This document shows positions 18,879 through 33,520 of a stretch of 64,000 nucleotides of DNA, in pieces (the stretch's first letter is position 1; each line of letters starts with the position of its first letter). A model generated the notes under the pieces. The model was not told the origin of the DNA and did no database searches. It was given only the letters and a program-made list of their open reading frames with translations. Source of the stretch: Promethearchaeota archaeon (GTDB taxonomy: Archaea; Asgardarchaeota; Lokiarchaeia; Sigyniarchaeales; SOKP01); assembly GCA_019894975.1 (NCBI GenBank), contig JAGXNO010000005.1, forward strand, positions 1 to 64,000, read 5' to 3'. The position numbers and the translations under genes are program-made.

Positions 18879-20348
18879 TTATTTCTTCTTACGTCTTGGT
18901 TCTATTTTCTTAATAATTATGCTCTCTGCGTGGATCTTACAGTTCTTTAGAATTATTTTGAATCCGCCACCGCCACCTACTCCAGGAATAGTCATACCAA
19001 CAGTTCCCATTGGAACCATCGCACCTTCTTCTTCCCATTCTTCTTCTTCCTCTTCCATTCCACCAACAGCAGCTTTATATTCTTCCGTTTCTATAACGGG
19101 ATGCTGAACTTTTTCTAACCATGCGGGTAGATCATTTAAATCAGGAACTTCTTCTTCAGTTGCAATTTTATCCCTAATCCCTTCTGGGAGAAGATCATAT
19201 ACGCGATCTTTAACTGTTTTCCCCATCCACACTACTAAATCAATTCCACTTTTTAATCCTGCTTGGAAGGCGTCATACTGCTGGAACTTTGGGCTGACTA
19301 TATATTGGATGCTGATGCCATTAAAGCCAGGCATTTGCTTTCCTCCCCCAGTTTGATGTTGTCATAATTCCCGAAACGGAAATCATATTGCCATCGCTGA
19401 GAAAGGTAATCCATTTAGAGCAACACCATCATGGTTTCTATCGATAATACCATGTCCTACTCCCGTTTCAGGGATAAGAAAATCTATCGCTTCAAAACAT
19501 CCGCAGGAAGTGTGAGGGAATTCCATTCCGCTATATAGATAAATTCTATTGATTTCTCCCAATGAACGTTTTTTAATCATTTCATTGATGCCAGTGAACT
19601 CACCTGCTTCTATGTTTAAAGCCTCTCCGGGTTCTATTTCGAAGAGAGGACCCTTAGGATCAACACGGGCTGCTGCTCTAGCATCGAACCATGAAATAGA
19701 ACCACATAAACTCATACGATTTGGTGTAATGCAGCATGCATGTGTTGGTGCGAATGATTGGCAAAGTACGCACCCGTAATACATGTCGACATCTTCATCA
19801 TTAATAGTCCTTGCTCTTTCATCCCTCTTATTATAGATACCTAAAGCAAAGTCATAAGGTTCTTCAATCTTTTTAGGATCGGTTATGATAGTAACTTGTG
19901 CTTTCTTAATTATAGGCAATTCAGCTTTGTAAAGACGAATTAGAACAGTTCCAAGTAATTCAAGAGTATTAAAGCCTTTTTTATAAGCTGCCTTTGAAAT
20001 TCGCATCCAATTAGTATATCTTTGATTCAAGTGCATTATGCCGTTTACAAAATTGCAGAACTCATGAACTCTGCGCTCAAATACGGCCTCGAGATCCTCC
20101 TCAAGCTCAGGTCCTGATACTTCTACCAGAATCCCTATAGGATAGCGTTCCCCTTCTTTCATGTCTTTAAGATCGGGACCAATAAGTGTGATTTTCCCAT
20201 CTTCAATTTCTTTTTCAGGTTTCACACGTACGAGTTCAAAGTGCTTCTCTATTTTTGGGCCTCCAAGCTCAACATACATCTGGTTTCCACGAATTCTTTC
20301 TCCTTCATACACGGGTCCTACATCGAAAGGTAAATCAGAAAAACTCAT
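18879..20348 (-). CDS. cdhC: Acetyl-CoA decarbonylase/synthase (ACDS) beta subunit, interrupted by a 30-nt insert; join(19388..20348,18879..19357) = 479 aa
   Basis: Track ORF 19383-20348 has PFDVGPVYEGERIR, the A-cluster ligands CVLCQSFAP, LCG and HTSCGCFE. Track ORF 18879-19334 has PGFNGISIQY..SPKF, DKIATEE, an acidic linker and KIILKNCKIHAESIII. Both are in one frame, separated by two TGAs inside the insert. Confidence 0.92.
19358..19387 (-). other. Candidate 30-nt bulge-helix-bulge (BHB) mRNA intron in cdhC
   Basis: Intron sequence UAUGAUUUCCGUUUCGGGAAUUAUGACAAC: 10-bp internal stem, central helix UGGC/GACA (one G-A mismatch), 3-nt bulges AA^U and AC^A, flanking exon pairing; excision gives ATG GCA AAT CAA ACT GGG (MANQTG). 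Confidence 0.75.
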
Positions 20349-20391: not shown

Positions 20392-20931
20392 TTATAGCTT
20401 TTCAATTAAACTTTCTAAAAATTCTTTCCAATCATCATCGCTAAAATTTGGTAAGCTAAATCTAGCGTTTGGATGTGAGTATTTATCTAAATCAATTGTT
20501 TTTACCCAGTTGGTAAAGTTTTTAATACGCGATAACGTTTGAGAGACATAAAATACTAAGTGACCACCGAATATTGCCATTGAATATTGTCCCTCTCCGT
20601 CCAGTCCTTCCCAGTCTTTATCACATAAACGATTTGTAAGATTAATTAAGGACATATCGTACAAAGATCCATCGGTAATTTTGTCTTTCACATAGCTATA
20701 TGCATGACCAGTAGTGACTACATGACAATTGATTTTTCCTGCGATTTCAATCAAATAATCAGCAAGTTTTTTACCATTGAGTTCCCAATTTAAAGATTCA
20801 GCACCAATAACCAAAACTTTTTTCATTGGACTTTTCAGAAAATTCGCCATTACAACAGGATCTGAAACAGAAACGCCCATTTCAGGGCCTGGTATATTTG
20901 CTTTTTGATACGGACGTGCCATTTTACTCAA
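20392..20931 (-). CDS. cdhB: ACDS/CO dehydrogenase epsilon subunit
   Basis: PYQKANIPGP, DKDWEGLDGEGQY, YVSQTLS..KNF, DKYSHPNARFS; directly upstream of cdhC. Confidence 0.88.
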   Translation of the reverse strand: MSKMARPYQKANIPGPEMGVSVSDPVVMANFLKSPMKKVLVIGAESLNWELNGKKLADYLIEIAGKINCHVVTTGHAYSYVKDKITDGSLYDMSLINLTNRLCDKDWEGLDGEGQYSMAIFGGHLVFYVSQTLSRIKNFTNWVKTIDLDKYSHPNARFSLPNFSDDDWKEFLESLIEKL

Positions 20932-21096: not shown

Positions 21097-22512
21097 TTAT
21101 AAATTGGGTCTTTTATCTTGCCAAGGAGCTATCTCCTCAAATGCTTTTGAGACCTGTAGAATTAATAACTCTTGGAATCTCTTACCAACGATTTGCAAAC
21201 CAATTGGAAGGTTGTTTTTTGTCCATCCACAGGGGATAGTAGCAGCAGGATGCCCAGTAAGGTTAAAAGGAAAGGTAAATGCTTGCCACGCTGTAGGGGA
21301 TACGTCAATCCCATTAATTTGGGAGGGATAAGGTTTTGTAGATTCAAAAGCGGGAACTGCTGTTGAGGGGGTGAGTAAGATATCATATTTTTTAAAATCT
21401 TCAAATATCGATTGATAAAACTGAGAACGTATACTCATAGCATTAGGTAAGCTTGAAGCCGGATATTGTAATCCCGCCTTAACCCAGCGCTCTAGACCTG
21501 GTTCTATTTTACCTTTCCATTCTTCTAAATAAGGCTTTAATTCATATCCAAACATTATTAACCACATTGTACTAAAAGCGACAGAAGGATCAAACTCCTT
21601 AAATTTTGCTTCTTCGACCTCCCACCCAAATGATTCAAACTTATGGGCTGAATTAACTACAGCTTTTTCAACTTCGTTATCTATGACTTTTGCATACCCT
21701 AGATCCGTAGTATAGCCAATCTTTAATTTATTTGGTTTTTCATTGATATGGTCAGAATATTTAATATTATCTTCTGGTAACGAATGTTTATCTCCCTCAA
21801 ATGGTCCCTTCATAGCATCAAGCATTAAAGCCGCATCCGAAACATATCTTACAATAGGGCCTATGACAGATAAAGTTTGACCGCTATGAAAAGTTCTTGG
21901 ATAAATTGCTACCCTACCAAAGCTGGGTTTAAGACCATAAGCACCACAAAAACAGGCGGGGTGTCGTATGGAACCCCCTCCATCAGAACCTTGTGCTAAA
22001 GGTCCCATTCCACAAACTACTGAAGCGGCAGCACCTCCACTAGAACCTCCCGCAGTTTTCTCAAGATCCCATGGATTTGGGGTTACGCCGAAAATCAAGT
22101 TATCAGTAACTCCCTTATAACCGAATTCAGGTGTATTTGTTTTTCCTAAAATTACACAACCTGCTTCTTTTAAGCGTGTAACAACAAGGTCATCTTCTTC
22201 GGGAATGTTGTGTTCATAGATTCTCGAACCATAAGTAGTTCTCACTCCTTTTACCGAAACTAAATCTTTTATTGAAGTTGGAATACCATTTAGAAGAGGA
22301 ATATTCTCTCTTTTCTTCACCCTATCATCAGCTTCTTTTGCCATTTCTCGTGCTAAATCGAACGTTGGAGTGCAATATGCGTTTATTATTGGATTAATCT
22401 TTTCTATTCTTTCAATAATGGTTTCAGTTATTTCCTGCGAGGTTAGTTCTTGGTTAGTTATTTTTTCTTTCATTTCCCAAGCAGACATAAAGCAAATATC
22501 GTCTTTATTCAT
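21097..22512 (-). CDS. Amidase-signature family protein
   Basis: SIKD, GKTNTPEFG, GGSSGG, GSDGGGSIRHPA. Confidence 0.92.
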   Translation of the reverse strand: MNKDDICFMSAWEMKEKITNQELTSQEITETIIERIEKINPIINAYCTPTFDLAREMAKEADDRVKKRENIPLLNGIPTSIKDLVSVKGVRTTYGSRIYEHNIPEEDDLVVTRLKEAGCVILGKTNTPEFGYKGVTDNLIFGVTPNPWDLEKTAGGSSGGAAASVVCGMGPLAQGSDGGGSIRHPACFCGAYGLKPSFGRVAIYPRTFHSGQTLSVIGPIVRYVSDAALMLDAMKGPFEGDKHSLPEDNIKYSDHINEKPNKLKIGYTTDLGYAKVIDNEVEKAVVNSAHKFESFGWEVEEAKFKEFDPSVAFSTMWLIMFGYELKPYLEEWKGKIEPGLERWVKAGLQYPASSLPNAMSIRSQFYQSIFEDFKKYDILLTPSTAVPAFESTKPYPSQINGIDVSPTAWQAFTFPFNLTGHPAATIPCGWTKNNLPIGLQIVGKRFQELLILQVSKAFEEIAPWQDKRPNL

Positions 22513-22616
22513 TTTCTAAACCTTGAAAATATATATTAAAATTATACAGATCTAAAAATTACACTCTTTAAAAGAAGTTTCTTCCCATCAATTATAGAAT
22601 AAATAAAAAAAAAAAA

Positions 22617-24071
22617 TTAGTTGAATTTTGGTTTTTTATCTTGCCAGGGTGCGATATCTTCAAAAGCTTTTGAAACCTGAAGAACGGTTAATTCATCAAA
22701 CCGTTTTCCAACTATTTGCATTCCAATAGGTAAACCATCACTAGACCAACCACATGGAATTGAAGCTGCAGGATGACCACTAGCGTTAAACGGATAAGTA
22801 AAAGGAAGCCATCCCGCTGAGGACACATTTTTTCCATCAATAATTATATCAGTGTTCATTGTTTCCATATTTATTTGTGATTTACCCAATTTAAAAGCAG
22901 GACATGCTAGGGTTGGTGTTATTAAAATATCAATGTTTTTGAATACCTTACAGATTTCCTCATAAATCATTTCTCTTTGAACTTCTGCTATCTTTATATC
23001 CTTAGTTGAAAACGTAAGACCAAGATTGATCAACTCTACAAGACCGGGATCCATTTTTTCCTTAGCTGATTCTAAGTAAGGTCCAAGAGTGTAAGCAAAT
23101 CCCGAGTTCCAAATAGTTGCAAATGTAGATTCAGGATTCCTCAGTCTAATTCTACTCTTTTGTGTTTCCCAACCGAAACCCTCAAACTTTTGAATTCCAT
23201 TTAAAACAGCTTTTTCAACTTCAGGATCGAGAGCTTCTGCAAATCCCAAATCCAAAGAGTATCCAATTTTTAATTTATTTGGTTTCTCATCAAGCCTTTC
23301 TACATAGCTATAATTTGGTTTCGGTATAGAATACCTATCAGAATCATCTTGACCTGCGATTACATCCAATACTAACGCAGCGTCTTTTACATATCTTACA
23401 AGAGGTCCTTTATGTACAAATGTTCCAAGGTAGCCCATCAATTTCATACCACTTTGTGGCACTCGACCAAAAGTTGATTTAAGACCATAAAGTCCACAGA
23501 AGCAACTAGGAATCCGAATAGAACCTCCACCATCGGATCCGATACCAATAGGGCCTAAGCCTGAAGCCACAGCACCAGCGGCACCACCGCTAGACCCTCC
23601 TGTAGTCCTCTCTAAATTCCAAGGGTTCTTAGTAACCCCAAAAATTAAATTATCGGTTTCTCCCTTGTATCCAAATGATGGTGTATTAGTTTTTCCCAAA
23701 ATAACAACACCTGCATCCCTCATCCTTTTAACAATAGCTTCATCATTCCTTGGGACATTATTTTCGAATAAAAATGAACCATATGTAGTTCTAATCCCCT
23801 TGGTCTCTGTTTCATCCTTTATAGACGCAGGAATCCCGTGTAATAGCCCTAATTTCTCACCATCCTTTACAGCTTTATCAGCTATTCTTGCAGTATCCCG
23901 AGCCAGTTCAAAAGTAGGAGTACAATAAACATTAATTATTGGATTTATCTTTTCTATCCTTTCAATGATAATTTCAGTTAATTCTTCAGATGAAATTTCT
24001 TGATTTTTTATCTTTACACCCATATCGTAAGCAGATATATAGCAAATTTCTTCTCTTTTCATGTCTAACAT
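22617..24071 (-). CDS. Amidase-signature family protein (tandem paralog; start likely ATG 24071 or 24062 rather than 24119)
   Basis: SIKD, GKTNTP, GGSSGG, GSDGGGSIRIPS; N- and C-termini closely match the neighbouring amidase. Confidence 0.9.
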   Translation of the reverse strand: MLDMKREEICYISAYDMGVKIKNQEISSEELTEIIIERIEKINPIINVYCTPTFELARDTARIADKAVKDGEKLGLLHGIPASIKDETETKGIRTTYGSFLFENNVPRNDEAIVKRMRDAGVVILGKTNTPSFGYKGETDNLIFGVTKNPWNLERTTGGSSGGAAGAVASGLGPIGIGSDGGGSIRIPSCFCGLYGLKSTFGRVPQSGMKLMGYLGTFVHKGPLVRYVKDAALVLDVIAGQDDSDRYSIPKPNYSYVERLDEKPNKLKIGYSLDLGFAEALDPEVEKAVLNGIQKFEGFGWETQKSRIRLRNPESTFATIWNSGFAYTLGPYLESAKEKMDPGLVELINLGLTFSTKDIKIAEVQREMIYEEICKVFKNIDILITPTLACPAFKLGKSQINMETMNTDIIIDGKNVSSAGWLPFTYPFNASGHPAASIPCGWSSDGLPIGMQIVGKRFDELTVLQVSKAFEDIAPWQDKKPKFN

Positions 24072-24207
24072 GACTAATCGTTCTATTTGTGTATAAATTA
24101 GTTTAAATTTAGATTTCAAATAAAAGGAAAGAAGATTTAATATAAATATATTATTCTTTTAAATCGCATTAAAAAGATAATCAAATAAATTGAAAGGAGA
24201 ATAACAT

Positions 24208-32440: not shown

Positions 32441-33520
32441 ATGTTGTTTACCAATATAATTGAAGCTATAATCACGAGAAATTTCACTCAGATTGTGATG
32501 TTCATAATTGGTATATACGTAATGAGATGGTATGCCAAGAAGAAGAGCACACACTATACTAAAGTGTGGGATTCATCTCTCAAAACGGCATTGATAATGA
32601 ATTTATCTTGGTTGGTAATAAGTATTCCTTGGAGTCTTACATTTAATTTCATGCGTATTGAAAGTGTGTTCATCGATCTAATTATCTCTGGAATTAATGT
32701 TTTAATTGGCTCTATAATCGTGATAATTTTATATGAGAAAAATTTGAGAGATTCTTTCTTGTTCGTAGTCGTTATTCAACTTATTATTTTCATCGCATCT
32801 ATAGTAGTAGGATTCATTTTAACAGTTGTTATGAGTTTTTTTTTATCAGGGAATTACGAAATAGCTTATTATATTCTTAAGATTGGATTACCATATACCT
32901 TACTTCTTACAATCCTTGGATTATTAATTGGATTTATTATTGGCATGGCGTTAGCCCTAATGCGTATTTATAGCGGTATTGAACTCAGTTGGATTGCAAA
33001 AACTTATGAGAATATATTCCGAGGTATTCCTATTTTAGTTTTAATCTATATCTTTGCTTATGGTTTTACCGGTCTATTTTGGTTTATAGAACTTTCTCAA
33101 AGACCACTTGCTAGTATTGTTTTAGCACTTGGTCTTCGAAGTGGTGCTTACCAATCCCAAATATTCCGTGGAGCTATACTTTCTGTGAATCCTGGTCAAA
33201 CAGATGCCGCTCGTGCTATAGGGATGAATGGAAATCAAACATTTCGACATATTATATTTCCTCAAGCTATTCGTCTGGCTGTACCTAGCTGGTCTAATGA
33301 ATATGCAGTAGTCATTAAGGACACATCATTTGCTTACGCCGTTGGTATTGTTGAAATGACTAAGGTAGCTTACGATTATTCTCGTGCCTTTCAAGGTACT
33401 TGGGCATTATCAATAGGTATTCTTGCGATTTTATATCTTCTCTTAACTTTTCCTGTAACCAAATTATTTGGGGAACGGCAAACTAAAAAACTTAAAGAAT
33501 TAGGAATGGGTGGTGGTTAA
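32441..33520 (+). CDS. Amino-acid ABC permease (HisM/GlnP-type) with extra N-terminal TM domain
   Basis: [43 protein letters not shown]. Confidence 0.9.

What the first reader, a model, noticed from the sequence alone, without database searches (positions are those of the whole stretch)
19342..19406. Candidate bulge-helix-bulge mRNA intron in acetyl-CoA synthase beta (cdhC)
Seen in sequence (minus strand): CCUUUCUCAG C GA UGGC AA^U AUGAUUUCCG UUU CGGGAAUUAU GACA AC^A UC AAA CUGGGGGAGG. The two halves of cdhC are in frame, but read A-I-*-F-P-F-R-E-L-*-Q-H-Q where homologs, from memory, have A-x-Q before (T/S)GGGKQ, so there are exactly 10 extra codons. The RNA folds into a 10-bp exon stem (19406-19397 with 19351-19342, G-U allowed), a 2-bp GA/UC helix, a 4-bp central helix UGGC/GACA (3 of 4 paired), two 3-nt bulges each 3' of the central helix, and a 10-bp intron hairpin. 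Established: archaeal EndA cuts after the second nucleotide of each bulge and RtcB ligates. Applying that rule removes exactly 19358-19387, deletes both stops and gives FSAMANQTGGGKQMPGF (479 aa). The well-known archaeal mRNA case is crenarchaeal cbf5. Inference: this is a tRNA-type mini-intron in a Wood-Ljungdahl enzyme mRNA of an Asgard archaeon. It may belong to a wider class hidden as 'split' or 'pseudo' genes, and is mechanistically reminiscent of eukaryotic HAC1/XBP1 non-spliceosomal splicing.
Basis: partly seen in the sequence, partly recalled or inferred. Interest (0 to 1): 0.95.

Follow-up and report, generated by a model that had tools for sequence, protein, structure and literature searches.

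The report
tRNA-type mini-intron in Asgard cdhC
The only acetyl-CoA synthase (cdhC) gene of this Loki-type Asgard archaeon is broken by a 30-base hairpin insert shaped and positioned like an archaeal tRNA intron, and relatives carry such inserts at seven sites in the same gene, so the mRNA is very probably cut and re-joined by the tRNA-splicing enzymes, which print reports for only one other archaeal gene (cbf5).

Summary
Observation confirmed. cdhC (minus strand, 18879-20348) carries 30 extra bases (19358-19387) with two in-frame TGA. An independent metagenome contig has them too, so this is not an assembly artefact. 41 of 46 same-genus cdhC genes lack an insert and read ...SAMANQTGGGKQMPGF. 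Of 14 possible 30-nt deletions, only the one set by the bulge-helix-bulge (BHB) rule restores that sequence.

Across about 141 distinct Loki-type cdhC genes I found 11 stop-bearing or frameshifting inserts (ten of 30 nt, one of 32 nt) at 7 sites. All share one geometry: 4-bp helix, 3-nt bulge, hairpin, 4-bp helix, 3-nt bulge. Covariation supports the pairing (88.6% of cells paired against 64% in shuffles; 12 of 15 pairs change on both sides).

Intron-bearing genes are under strong purifying selection (dN/dS about 0.05). The genome encodes EndA alpha and beta subunits and RtcB.

Best reading (0.85): an EndA/RtcB-spliced pre-mRNA mini-intron. No RNA data were available, so splicing itself is inferred. 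This scan has noted the same class in other genes of this genome and in other Asgard genomes. The held literature reports only the crenarchaeal cbf5 case.

The parts
19388..20348 (-). cdhC exon 1 (codons 1-320 plus the first base of Asn321). It ends ...GCG AUG GCA A.
   Evidence: ORF and translation; Pfam PF03598 and PF19436 positions 1-148.
19358..19387 (-). 30-nt mini-intron: U + AUGAUUUCCG UUU CGGGAAUUAU + GACA + AC. It is in phase 1 and carries two in-frame TGA.
   Evidence: This is the only 30-nt deletion register that restores the invariant AMANQTGGG. It occurs once in the genome. It is present in an independent DNA contig.
18879..19357 (-). cdhC exon 2 (AU of Asn321 through the stop codon).
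   Evidence: Translation; Pfam PF19436 positions 151-242; the spliced frame is open for 479 aa.
19390..19393 (-). Central BHB helix, 5' strand (exon): UGGC.
   Evidence: Pairs with GACA at 19360-19363, 3 of 4 pairs with one G.A. The orthologous intron in L031 has UGGC/GCUA, 4 of 4.
19360..19363 (-). Central BHB helix, 3' strand (intron): GACA.
   Evidence: Two of the four central-helix pairs change on both sides across alleles.
19387..19389 (-). 5' bulge AAU. The predicted EndA cut lies between 19388 and 19387.
   Evidence: BHB geometry; the cut register is confirmed by the protein alignment.
19357..19359 (-). 3' bulge ACA. The predicted EndA cut lies between 19358 and 19357.
19364..19386 (-). 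Intron hairpin (h'): 10 bp with a UUU loop.
   Evidence: Fold. Nine of the nine hairpin pairs counted show changes on both sides across 7 alleles, and 96.8% of cells are paired.
19394..19406 (-). Outer helix, 5' arm: exon stem CCUUUCUCAG (19406-19397), an unpaired C, then GA (19395-19394).
   Evidence: Fold. It pairs with 19342-19356.
19342..19356 (-). Outer helix, 3' arm: UC (19356-19355), AAA, then CUGGGGGAGG (19351-19342).
   Evidence: Fold. This exon-exon complementarity comes largely from the LPFS and TGGG codons and is also seen in intron-less alleles.
20392..20931 (-). cdhB (CODH/ACS epsilon subunit), directly upstream and co-directional with cdhC.
   Evidence: Pfam PF02552, E = 2e-22.

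Best explanation
The 30 bases at 19358-19387 are a bulge-helix-bulge (BHB) mini-intron in the cdhC pre-mRNA.

Proposed mechanism:
1. The transcript folds locally into helix - 3-nt bulge - 4-bp helix - 3-nt bulge - helix. The 5' strand of the central helix (UGGC) is exon. The 3' strand (GACA) and the 10-bp hairpin are intron.
2. The heteromeric (alpha-beta)2 splicing endonuclease EndA cuts after the second base of each bulge (AA^U and AC^A).
3. RtcB joins the exons to give GCA A|AU CAA (Ala-Asn-Gln). This restores the 479-aa acetyl-CoA synthase beta subunit. The 30-nt intron is released, probably as a circle.
4. Unspliced mRNA would yield only a 321-aa truncated protein.

Shown here: the insert is real DNA, the exact junction, the structure and its covariation, purifying selection on the exons, and the presence of the enzymes. 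Inferred: cleavage and ligation in vivo. Whether splicing is regulated is not known.
For: 1. Junction. 41 of 46 same-genus cdhC genes have no insert and read LPFSAMANQTGGGKQMPGF. Of 14 possible 30-nt deletions, only the one given by the BHB rule restores this.

2. Recurrence. I found 11 insert alleles at 7 sites in about 141 distinct Loki-type cdhC genes.
- Site 1: the window, L031, L109 (32 nt, frameshifting), L170, L200.
- Site 2 (GGG|KQ): L032, L033.
- Single alleles: L021 (GP|LY), L078 (PH|TSCGCF), L092 (GCV|LCQ), L101 (NG|IMH).
- Every one has the same layout: 4-bp helix + 2 nt, cut, 1 nt + hairpin + 4 nt + 2 nt, cut. Each restores the conserved residues.

3. Covariation. On the 45-nt cores of 7 alleles, 88.6% of cells pair against 64.4% in shuffles (0 of 500 reach the observed value). 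12 of 15 pairs change on both sides. Controls with partners slid by 1-3 columns pair in 30-53% of cells. Between L032 and L033, a synonymous exon change U->C in the central helix is matched by A->G in the intron.

4. Selection. dN/dS is 0.054 (window vs L031) and 0.047 (L032 vs L033), against 0.045 for an intron-less pair. Synonymous sites are saturated (pS about 0.66), yet the introns differ at only 5 and 6 of 30 bases.

5. Gene status. cdhC is the only copy in the genome and sits directly behind cdhB.

6. Enzymes. The genome has two EndA paralogues. One has Tyr/His/Lys at the aligned catalytic positions, read by eye from the BLASTP alignment. The other lacks the His and shares 30% identity with the first. 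RtcB is also present. Asgard EndA is reported to be the (alpha-beta)2 type with the L1 loop that gives broad substrate range (PMC5829648).

7. Context. ARAGORN finds only 16 tRNAs, 6 with introns, in a 95%-complete genome. This fits heavily interrupted Asgard tRNA genes (bioRxiv 10.64898/2026.10.13.758758). dnaG (37 nt), a JAMM protease (31 nt) and a histone gene in this genome are split in the same way.

8. Real DNA. An independent-study contig contains the insert with no differences.
Against: - There is no RNA evidence for this locus. No RNA run holds the stretch. No full-length protein identical to the spliced product appeared among the best 120 representatives at 90% identity; the closest was 91%.
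- In the window's allele the central helix has a G.A mismatch (3 of 4 pairs). Two other alleles (L200, L101) have only 2 of 4.
- ViennaRNA prefers a non-BHB conformer by about 9 kcal/mol.
- The outer helix next to the bulge is only 2 bp before an asymmetric loop.
- The exon-exon stem is not specific to intron carriers. Intron-less alleles average -9.4 kcal/mol and range down to -15.7, against -10.4 to -14.6 for carriers.
- Whether Asgard EndA cleaves this substrate has not been measured.
Confidence: 0.85

Rival explanations
1. The gene is a pseudogene, inactivated by insertion of a small palindromic or hairpin element, and the BHB resemblance is fortuitous.
For: There are two in-frame stops. 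The carriers are scattered on the gene tree rather than forming clades, as sporadic inactivations would be.
Against: dN/dS of 0.05 in carriers equals that of intact genes, although synonymous sites are saturated. There are no other lesions in any of the 11 alleles. It is the only cdhC copy. The insert is unique in the genome, so it is not a repeat family. Eleven inserts of 30-32 nt share one asymmetric geometry that restores the frame exactly. The structure covaries.
Confidence: 0.04
2. The enzyme is two-piece, or a truncated product is deliberately made. The unspliced mRNA is the functional state. It gives a 321-aa N-terminal protein, with or without a separately initiated C-terminal piece starting at Met (MPGF, ATG at 19334).
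For: An ATG-started 151-aa ORF (18879-19334) follows the insert. Split enzymes do exist in archaea.
Against: That Met is part of the conserved KQMPGF motif in intron-less genes too. The break point differs among relatives, with 7 sites, including inside the Cys-Gly-Cys metal motif (L078). Several of those sites leave no start codon at the break. The idea does not explain the BHB geometry or the covariation.
Confidence: 0.05
3. The insert is handled by translational recoding: ribosomal bypassing over the hairpin (as in T4 gene 60), or stop-codon read-through or reassignment that yields a 10-aa insertion.
For: A stop codon sits at the start of a stable hairpin directly after the last conserved codon, which superficially resembles the gene 60 take-off site.
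Against: The insert splits the Asn codon (A|AU), so hopping cannot recreate the invariant Asn. No matching take-off and landing codons exist. Different alleles carry TGA, TAA or TAG, so no single reassignment works. L109 has 32 nt and shifts the frame. No stop-free 10-codon insertion is seen in any same-genus gene; all match lengths are standard.
Confidence: 0.03
4. The insert is an assembly or sequencing artefact.
For: The genome is a 175-contig MAG with 8.6% estimated contamination.
Against: An identical 1193-nt contig from a different study (X4 record 13) spans the insert, as do the three probable source runs. Homologous inserts occur in 10 other independent assemblies.
Confidence: 0.01

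Closest known systems
BHB intron in the cbf5 (pseudouridine synthase) pre-mRNA of Crenarchaeota (Aeropyrum, Sulfolobales, Desulfurococcales; Watanabe 2002, Yoshinari 2006, Yokobori 2009 = PMC2738675)
   Same: Both are short introns in a protein-coding gene, bounded by a bulge-helix-bulge motif. Both hosts have a hetero-oligomeric EndA. Both show a patchy distribution with intron-less relatives, interpreted as gain and loss.
   Different: The gene differs (a Wood-Ljungdahl enzyme) and so does the lineage (Lokiarchaeia/Promethearchaeia, Asgard). Here there are at least 7 sites in one gene rather than one, a nearly fixed length of 30 nt, and one intron family present at two neighbouring sites. 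Splicing of cbf5 was shown experimentally; here it is inferred.
[quoted passage not shown]
   Same: The motif, the cut positions in the bulges and the EndA/RtcB machinery are the same. Introns occur at many positions, are gained repeatedly, include relaxed motifs, and persist where the exon context can form the helix.
   Different: The host RNA is an mRNA. The exon half of the motif is therefore built from codons (UGGC from Met-Ala or Gly-Gly). Splicing must compete with translation. The intron breaks a reading frame rather than a cloverleaf.
HAC1/XBP1 unconventional cytoplasmic mRNA splicing in eukaryotes
   Same: Both are non-spliceosomal, protein-enzyme cleavage of an mRNA at two structured sites. 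Both leave 2',3'-cyclic phosphate and 5'-OH ends that are joined by a tRNA ligase (RtcB in metazoa). In both, the short intron decides which protein is made.
   Different: The HAC1/XBP1 endonuclease is Ire1, which recognises twin 7-nt stem-loops, not EndA on a BHB. I did not search for an Ire1 homologue here. HAC1/XBP1 splicing is stress-regulated, and regulation here is unknown.
Other BHB-type mini-introns noted by this scan in Asgard protein genes (same genome: dnaG, UXS, histone, JAMM, cobO; other genomes: cdhA, acs, rrp41, kae1, RFC)
   Same: They share the size class (17-37 nt), the hairpin-plus-BHB layout and the lineage. Two notes report RNA-derived contigs that lack the intron exactly as predicted (e1-5425751, e1-5425387); I did not verify these.
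   Different: These are unpublished AI notes, not literature. The present case adds the multi-site picture for cdhC and the sharing of one intron family between two sites.

Membership tests
Archaeal BHB intron (EndA-cleaved, RtcB-ligated) | [quoted passage not shown] | tested here: met
   The window has UGGC/GACA with bulges AAU and ACA, 3 of 4 pairs (one G.A). The orthologous L031 has 4 of 4. Across 11 alleles the central helix is 4/4 in 5, 3/4 in 4 and 2/4 in 2. The motif is therefore relaxed in some alleles.
Archaeal BHB intron (EndA-cleaved, RtcB-ligated) | Flanking helices h (outer) and h' (inner) | tested here: met
   The inner hairpin is 10 bp. The outer helix is GA/UC plus a 10-bp exon-exon stem after a 1x3 loop.
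Archaeal BHB intron (EndA-cleaved, RtcB-ligated) | Cuts at the symmetric bulge positions give a precise, functional exon junction | tested here: met
   Only the BHB-rule register, 1 of 14 tried, restores the invariant AMANQTGGG. The same rule restores the conserved residues in the other 10 alleles.
Archaeal BHB intron (EndA-cleaved, RtcB-ligated) | The structure is conserved through compensatory change | tested here: met
   88.6% of cells paired; 12 of 15 pairs change on both sides; 0 of 500 shuffles reach the observed value; slid controls pair in 30-53% of cells. Caveat: the alleles were aligned by their cut sites, and some may be independent insertions.
Archaeal BHB intron (EndA-cleaved, RtcB-ligated) | The host encodes the splicing endonuclease and RtcB ligase | tested here: met
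   EndA alpha-like on C22 and beta-like on C55; RtcB on C90.
Archaeal BHB intron (EndA-cleaved, RtcB-ligated) | The intron is absent from mature RNA, or an excised or circular intron is detectable | not testable with these tools
   No RNA run holds the stretch. Only DNA contigs could be laid.
cbf5-type pre-mRNA intron (as a homologous family) | Located in cbf5 at the conserved crenarchaeal position | tested here: not met
   The host gene is cdhC (Pfam PF03598/PF19436). This intron works like the cbf5 intron but is not an orthologue of it.
Pseudogene | Relaxed selection (dN/dS approaching 1) and accumulation of further lesions | tested here: not met
   dN/dS is 0.047-0.057. There are no other stops or frameshifts in the carriers.
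Programmed translational bypass (T4 gene 60 type) | Matching take-off and landing codons flank the gap, and the coding sequence resumes on a codon boundary | tested here: not met
   The insert lies inside the Asn codon (phase 1), and no matching codon pair exists. L109 has 32 nt.
HAC1/XBP1-type Ire1 splicing | Ire1 kinase-RNase and twin stem-loops with conserved 7-nt loops at the splice sites | not tested
   The structure seen is a BHB, not twin loops. I did not search for Ire1.

The most novel reading that the evidence does not exclude
cdhC is one of many mRNAs in Lokiarchaeia/Promethearchaeia, and in other Asgard lineages, that need tRNA-type splicing. On this reading a population of roughly 30-nt BHB mini-introns colonises coding sequences wherever codons can supply the exon half of the motif, giving at least 7 sites in cdhC alone. 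The introns move between nearby sites that share the exon word UGGCAA|A: one intron family occupies both site 1 and site 2, which lie 18 nt apart. They are also lost precisely. Routine protein-catalysed mRNA splicing would then be a feature of the archaeal relatives of eukaryotes, and many Asgard 'split' or 'pseudo' genes would be mis-annotations.
Probability: 0.5. Interest if true: 0.9.

Novelty: new member of a known kind. Interest (0 to 1): 0.8.

Why it matters
Outside tRNA and rRNA, the literature I could search confirms BHB splicing for only one archaeal protein gene, cbf5.

- **A core gene depends on splicing.** Here a central carbon-fixation and acetogenesis gene of an Asgard archaeon depends on it, and the same gene carries such introns at seven positions across relatives. 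Enzyme-mediated mRNA splicing may therefore be common in the closest prokaryotic relatives of eukaryotes.
- **Annotation.** Gene callers report these genes as fragments. Metabolic reconstructions could then score the Wood-Ljungdahl pathway as broken.
- **Intron origin.** The case offers a handle on how BHB introns arrive and move, because one intron family sits at two sites that share a 7-nt exon word.
- **Coupling to translation.** It raises the question of how splicing coexists with coupled transcription and translation.

All of this is directly testable with recombinant EndA/RtcB and with metatranscriptomes.

Tried and rejected
- **RNA evidence.** No RNA holder was listed for the gene, so splicing could not be observed.
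- **Spliced-form protein.** I looked among the best 120 representatives (clustered at 90% identity) of the 5.8-billion-protein collection for a full-length protein identical to the spliced product. None was found; the closest to the window's spliced product is 91% identical. Identical members inside clusters cannot be excluded.
- **Genome-wide BHB scan.** The scan gave 1.86 million structural candidates. 12,616 of them restore an ORF, against 11,234 for random decoys. It is dominated by noise in this 32%-GC genome. There is no excess at 30 nt.
- **Two scan hits checked.** The best extra hits (C120:77592-77621 and C142:62549-62579) are adjacent genes and a terminator-like hairpin, not introns. 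The scan's thresholds also missed the short-exon cases (dnaG, histone), which I then confirmed directly.
- **Repeat or MITE hypothesis.** The 30-mer and the 65-mer have no other copy in the genome.
- **Selection for the exon-exon stem in carriers.** Not supported. The stem is largely inherent in the LPFS and TGGG codons and is equally strong in some intron-less alleles.
- **L201 (339-aa fragment).** This is a 1-nt frameshift, not an intron.
- **X7 'joint' (19340 to 19489, 115 letters between).** This is a diverged relative, not a spliced form.
- **First hand-fits of L092 and L101.** They gave 28-nt or poorly paired solutions. Re-registering against the consensus residues (VL and GIM) gave regular 30-nt BHB solutions.
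- **Including L021 in the covariation alignment.** MAFFT shifted it by one column, so it was left out of A3.
Full report
**Observation**

On the minus strand, window 18879-20348 encodes CdhC, the CODH/acetyl-CoA synthase beta subunit. Pfam PF03598 and PF19436 cover both halves, and only profile positions 149-150 are missing at the break. The frame reads ...LPFSAMAI*FPFREL*QHQTGGGKQMPGF..., with TGA at 19383-19385 and 19362-19364.

The surrounding 81 nt fold far better than shuffles (-28.7 kcal/mol, z = -4.87).
- exon stem 19406-19397 with 19351-19342;
- GA/UC;
- UGGC/GACA, with one G.A mismatch;
- bulges AAU and ACA;
- a 10-bp hairpin.

The insert is real DNA. A contig from a different study (X4 record 13) covers 19064-20254 without a single difference. 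The 30-mer is unique in the 3.9-Mb, 175-contig genome.

**What relatives show**

The genus holds 54 genomes, 46 of them with cdhC. Forty-one have no insert in the C-terminal domain and read LPFSAMANQTGGGKQMPGF.

Five genomes, including the window's, have 30-nt stop-bearing inserts at three different sites:
- the window and G018 (L031) between Ala and Asn;
- G015 (L032) and G028 (L033) six codons downstream, inside GGG|KQ;
- G017 (L021) about 80 codons upstream, at GP|LY.

Scans of metagenome contigs, species-representative genomes and the protein collection added more alleles:
- L109: site 1, 32 nt, so frameshifting;
- L170 and L200: site 1;
- L078: from record LAZR01016863, inside PH|TSCGCF, the metal-binding Cys-Gly-Cys motif;
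- L092: GCV|LCQSF;
- L101: NG|IMH.

In total there are 11 alleles at 7 sites among about 141 distinct Loki-type cdhC sequences. Close relatives are titled Promethearchaeota or Promethearchaeia MAGs, so the Asgard assignment holds.

**Geometry**

In every allele the excised segment is 1 nt + a hairpin (23 nt; 25 nt in L109) + 4 nt + 2 nt. It is preceded in the exon by 4 nt + 2 nt. The two 4-mers pair with each other: 4/4 in five alleles, 3/4 in four including the window, and 2/4 in two. This is the BHB layout with cuts after the second bulge base.

For the window, I tried all 14 possible 30-nt deletions around the insert. Only the BHB-rule register gives AMANQTGGG. In 200,000 shuffles of the 45-nt core, none matched the observed motif.

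After removing the predicted introns, all five genus alleles are open full-length frames.

**Covariation and selection**

I aligned seven 30-nt alleles on their cut sites (A3) and counted pairs:
- 88.6% of cells form pairs, against 64.4% in shuffles (0 of 500 reach the observed value);
- 12 of 15 pairs change on both sides;
- sliding the partners by 1-3 columns drops pairing to 30-53%.

Between L032 and L033 there are two double changes in the hairpin. There is also one in the central helix, where a synonymous exon change (GGU to GGC) is matched by A to G in the intron.

Exons of carriers evolve at dN/dS 0.047-0.057, the same as an intron-less pair (0.045). Synonymous sites are saturated (pS about 0.66), yet orthologous introns differ at only 5 or 6 of 30 positions. 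The genes are therefore functional and the introns are constrained.

On the CdhC tree the carriers are not sisters. L031 pairs with the intron-less L023 (support 97/91), and L033 with the intron-less L018 (99/95). The distribution therefore needs repeated precise loss, transfer or re-gain.

**Machinery and context**

The genome encodes two diverged EndA paralogues of 202 and 200 aa, 30% identical over the catalytic domain. One has Tyr/His/Lys at the aligned catalytic positions, read by eye from the BLASTP alignment. The other lacks the His. RtcB is also present. This fits the (alpha-beta)2 EndA with the L1 loop reported for Asgard archaea, the type that tolerates relaxed motifs (PMC5829648).

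ARAGORN finds only 16 tRNAs, 6 with introns, in a 95%-complete genome. This agrees with heavily interrupted Asgard tRNA genes (bioRxiv 10.64898/2026.10.13.758758).

Following leads from earlier notes of this scan, I confirmed three other split genes in the same genome:
- dnaG is split AIFGQ|TEGLL by 37 nt (C87);
- a JAMM protease is split HSHPGF|KVMMSHID by 31 nt (C120);
- a histone gene on C110 carries a GGCU/GGUU BHB.

cdhC is the only copy in the genome and directly follows cdhB.

**Intron families**

An identity matrix of the 30-nt introns shows three close pairs: the window with L031 (25/30), L032 with L033 (24/30), and L170 with L200 (22/30).

L170 and L200 (site 1) are as similar to L032 and L033 (site 2) as they are to each other: 19-22 of 30, against 6-15 for unrelated pairs. 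Sites 1 and 2 lie 18 nt apart, and both follow the exon word UGGCAA|A.

The simplest reading is that one intron family has occupied both sites. How this happened (sliding, reverse splicing or recombination) is not known.

Site 1 itself holds at least three unrelated hairpins: the window/L031 type, L109, and L170/L200.

**Caveats**

- No RNA data exist for this locus in the resources available, so excision is inferred.
- ViennaRNA prefers a GAUG/CAUC conformer over the BHB conformer by about 9 kcal/mol.
- The window's central helix has a mismatch.
- The exon-exon stem is largely a by-product of the LPFS and TGGG codons, and some intron-less alleles have it equally strong. It may explain why the site is permissive, but it is not evidence of selection for splicing.
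- My ab initio genome scan could not separate real introns from noise.

**Rivals**

- **Pseudogene.** Contradicted by dN/dS, by the single-copy status and by the absence of other lesions.
- **Two-piece enzyme.** Does not explain seven break points, one of them inside the Cys-Gly-Cys motif, or the BHB geometry.
- **Bypassing or read-through.** Fails because the insert splits a codon, the alleles use all three stop codons, and one insert is 32 nt.
- **Artefact.** Excluded by independent assemblies.

**Comparison and novelty**

The mechanism is that of the crenarchaeal cbf5 pre-mRNA intron (PMC2738675) and of tRNA BHB introns. Seven literature searches found no report of BHB introns in Asgard protein genes.

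This scan has noted the same class repeatedly, in this genome and in other Asgard genomes. It includes cdhC at sites 2 and 3 and a cdhA case said to be absent from RNA assemblies. I verified the cdhC sites independently but not the RNA claims.

I rate the finding a new member of a known kind, with high interest. A central metabolic gene depends on splicing, and the multi-site, shared-family pattern speaks to how such introns spread.

Noticed in passing
G000:C87:33420-33456; G000:C120:71353-71383; G000:C110 about 33263-33320 (same genome, outside the window): Three other protein genes of this genome are split by short hairpin inserts. dnaG is split AIFGQ|TEGLL by 37 nt. A JAMM/MPN protease is split HSHPGF|KVMMSHID by 31 nt. 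A histone gene has a GGCU/GGUU central helix with bulges GAA and AAA.
   Followed up: partly
L170:1259-1288 and L200:1045-1074 (site 1) against L032:1311-1340 and L033:1355-1384 (site 2): Introns at two different cdhC sites 18 nt apart belong to one sequence family (19-22 of 30 identical, against 6-15 for unrelated introns). Both sites follow the exon word UGGCAA|A. This suggests intron relocation between the sites.
   Followed up: partly
L078:1856-1885 (record LAZR01016863.1): In a marine-sediment metagenome contig, a 30-nt BHB insert with a TAG sits inside PH|TSCGCF, right at the Cys-Gly-Cys motif of the acetyl-CoA synthase metal cluster.
   Followed up: partly
whole genome G000: ARAGORN detects only 16 tRNA genes, 6 with introns of 9-30 nt, in a 95%-complete genome. 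Most tRNA genes are probably too interrupted to be recognised.
   Followed up: no
window 21097-24119 (-): Two tandem amidase paralogues (471 and 500 aa, PF01425) lie directly upstream of cdhB-cdhC. cdhA is not adjacent to cdhB-cdhC in this genome.
   Followed up: no
L201:about 1040-1110: A metagenomic cdhC allele has a single-base deletion in GGA AUU (NG|ISIQY), which shifts the frame. This is a plain frameshift or sequencing error, not an intron.
   Followed up: yes
G000:C48:320-1171: A second, partial RtcB match (profile positions 150-426) sits on a 1.2-kb contig. It may be a second copy, an intein-split fragment or contamination. The genome's estimated contamination is 8.6%.
   Followed up: no
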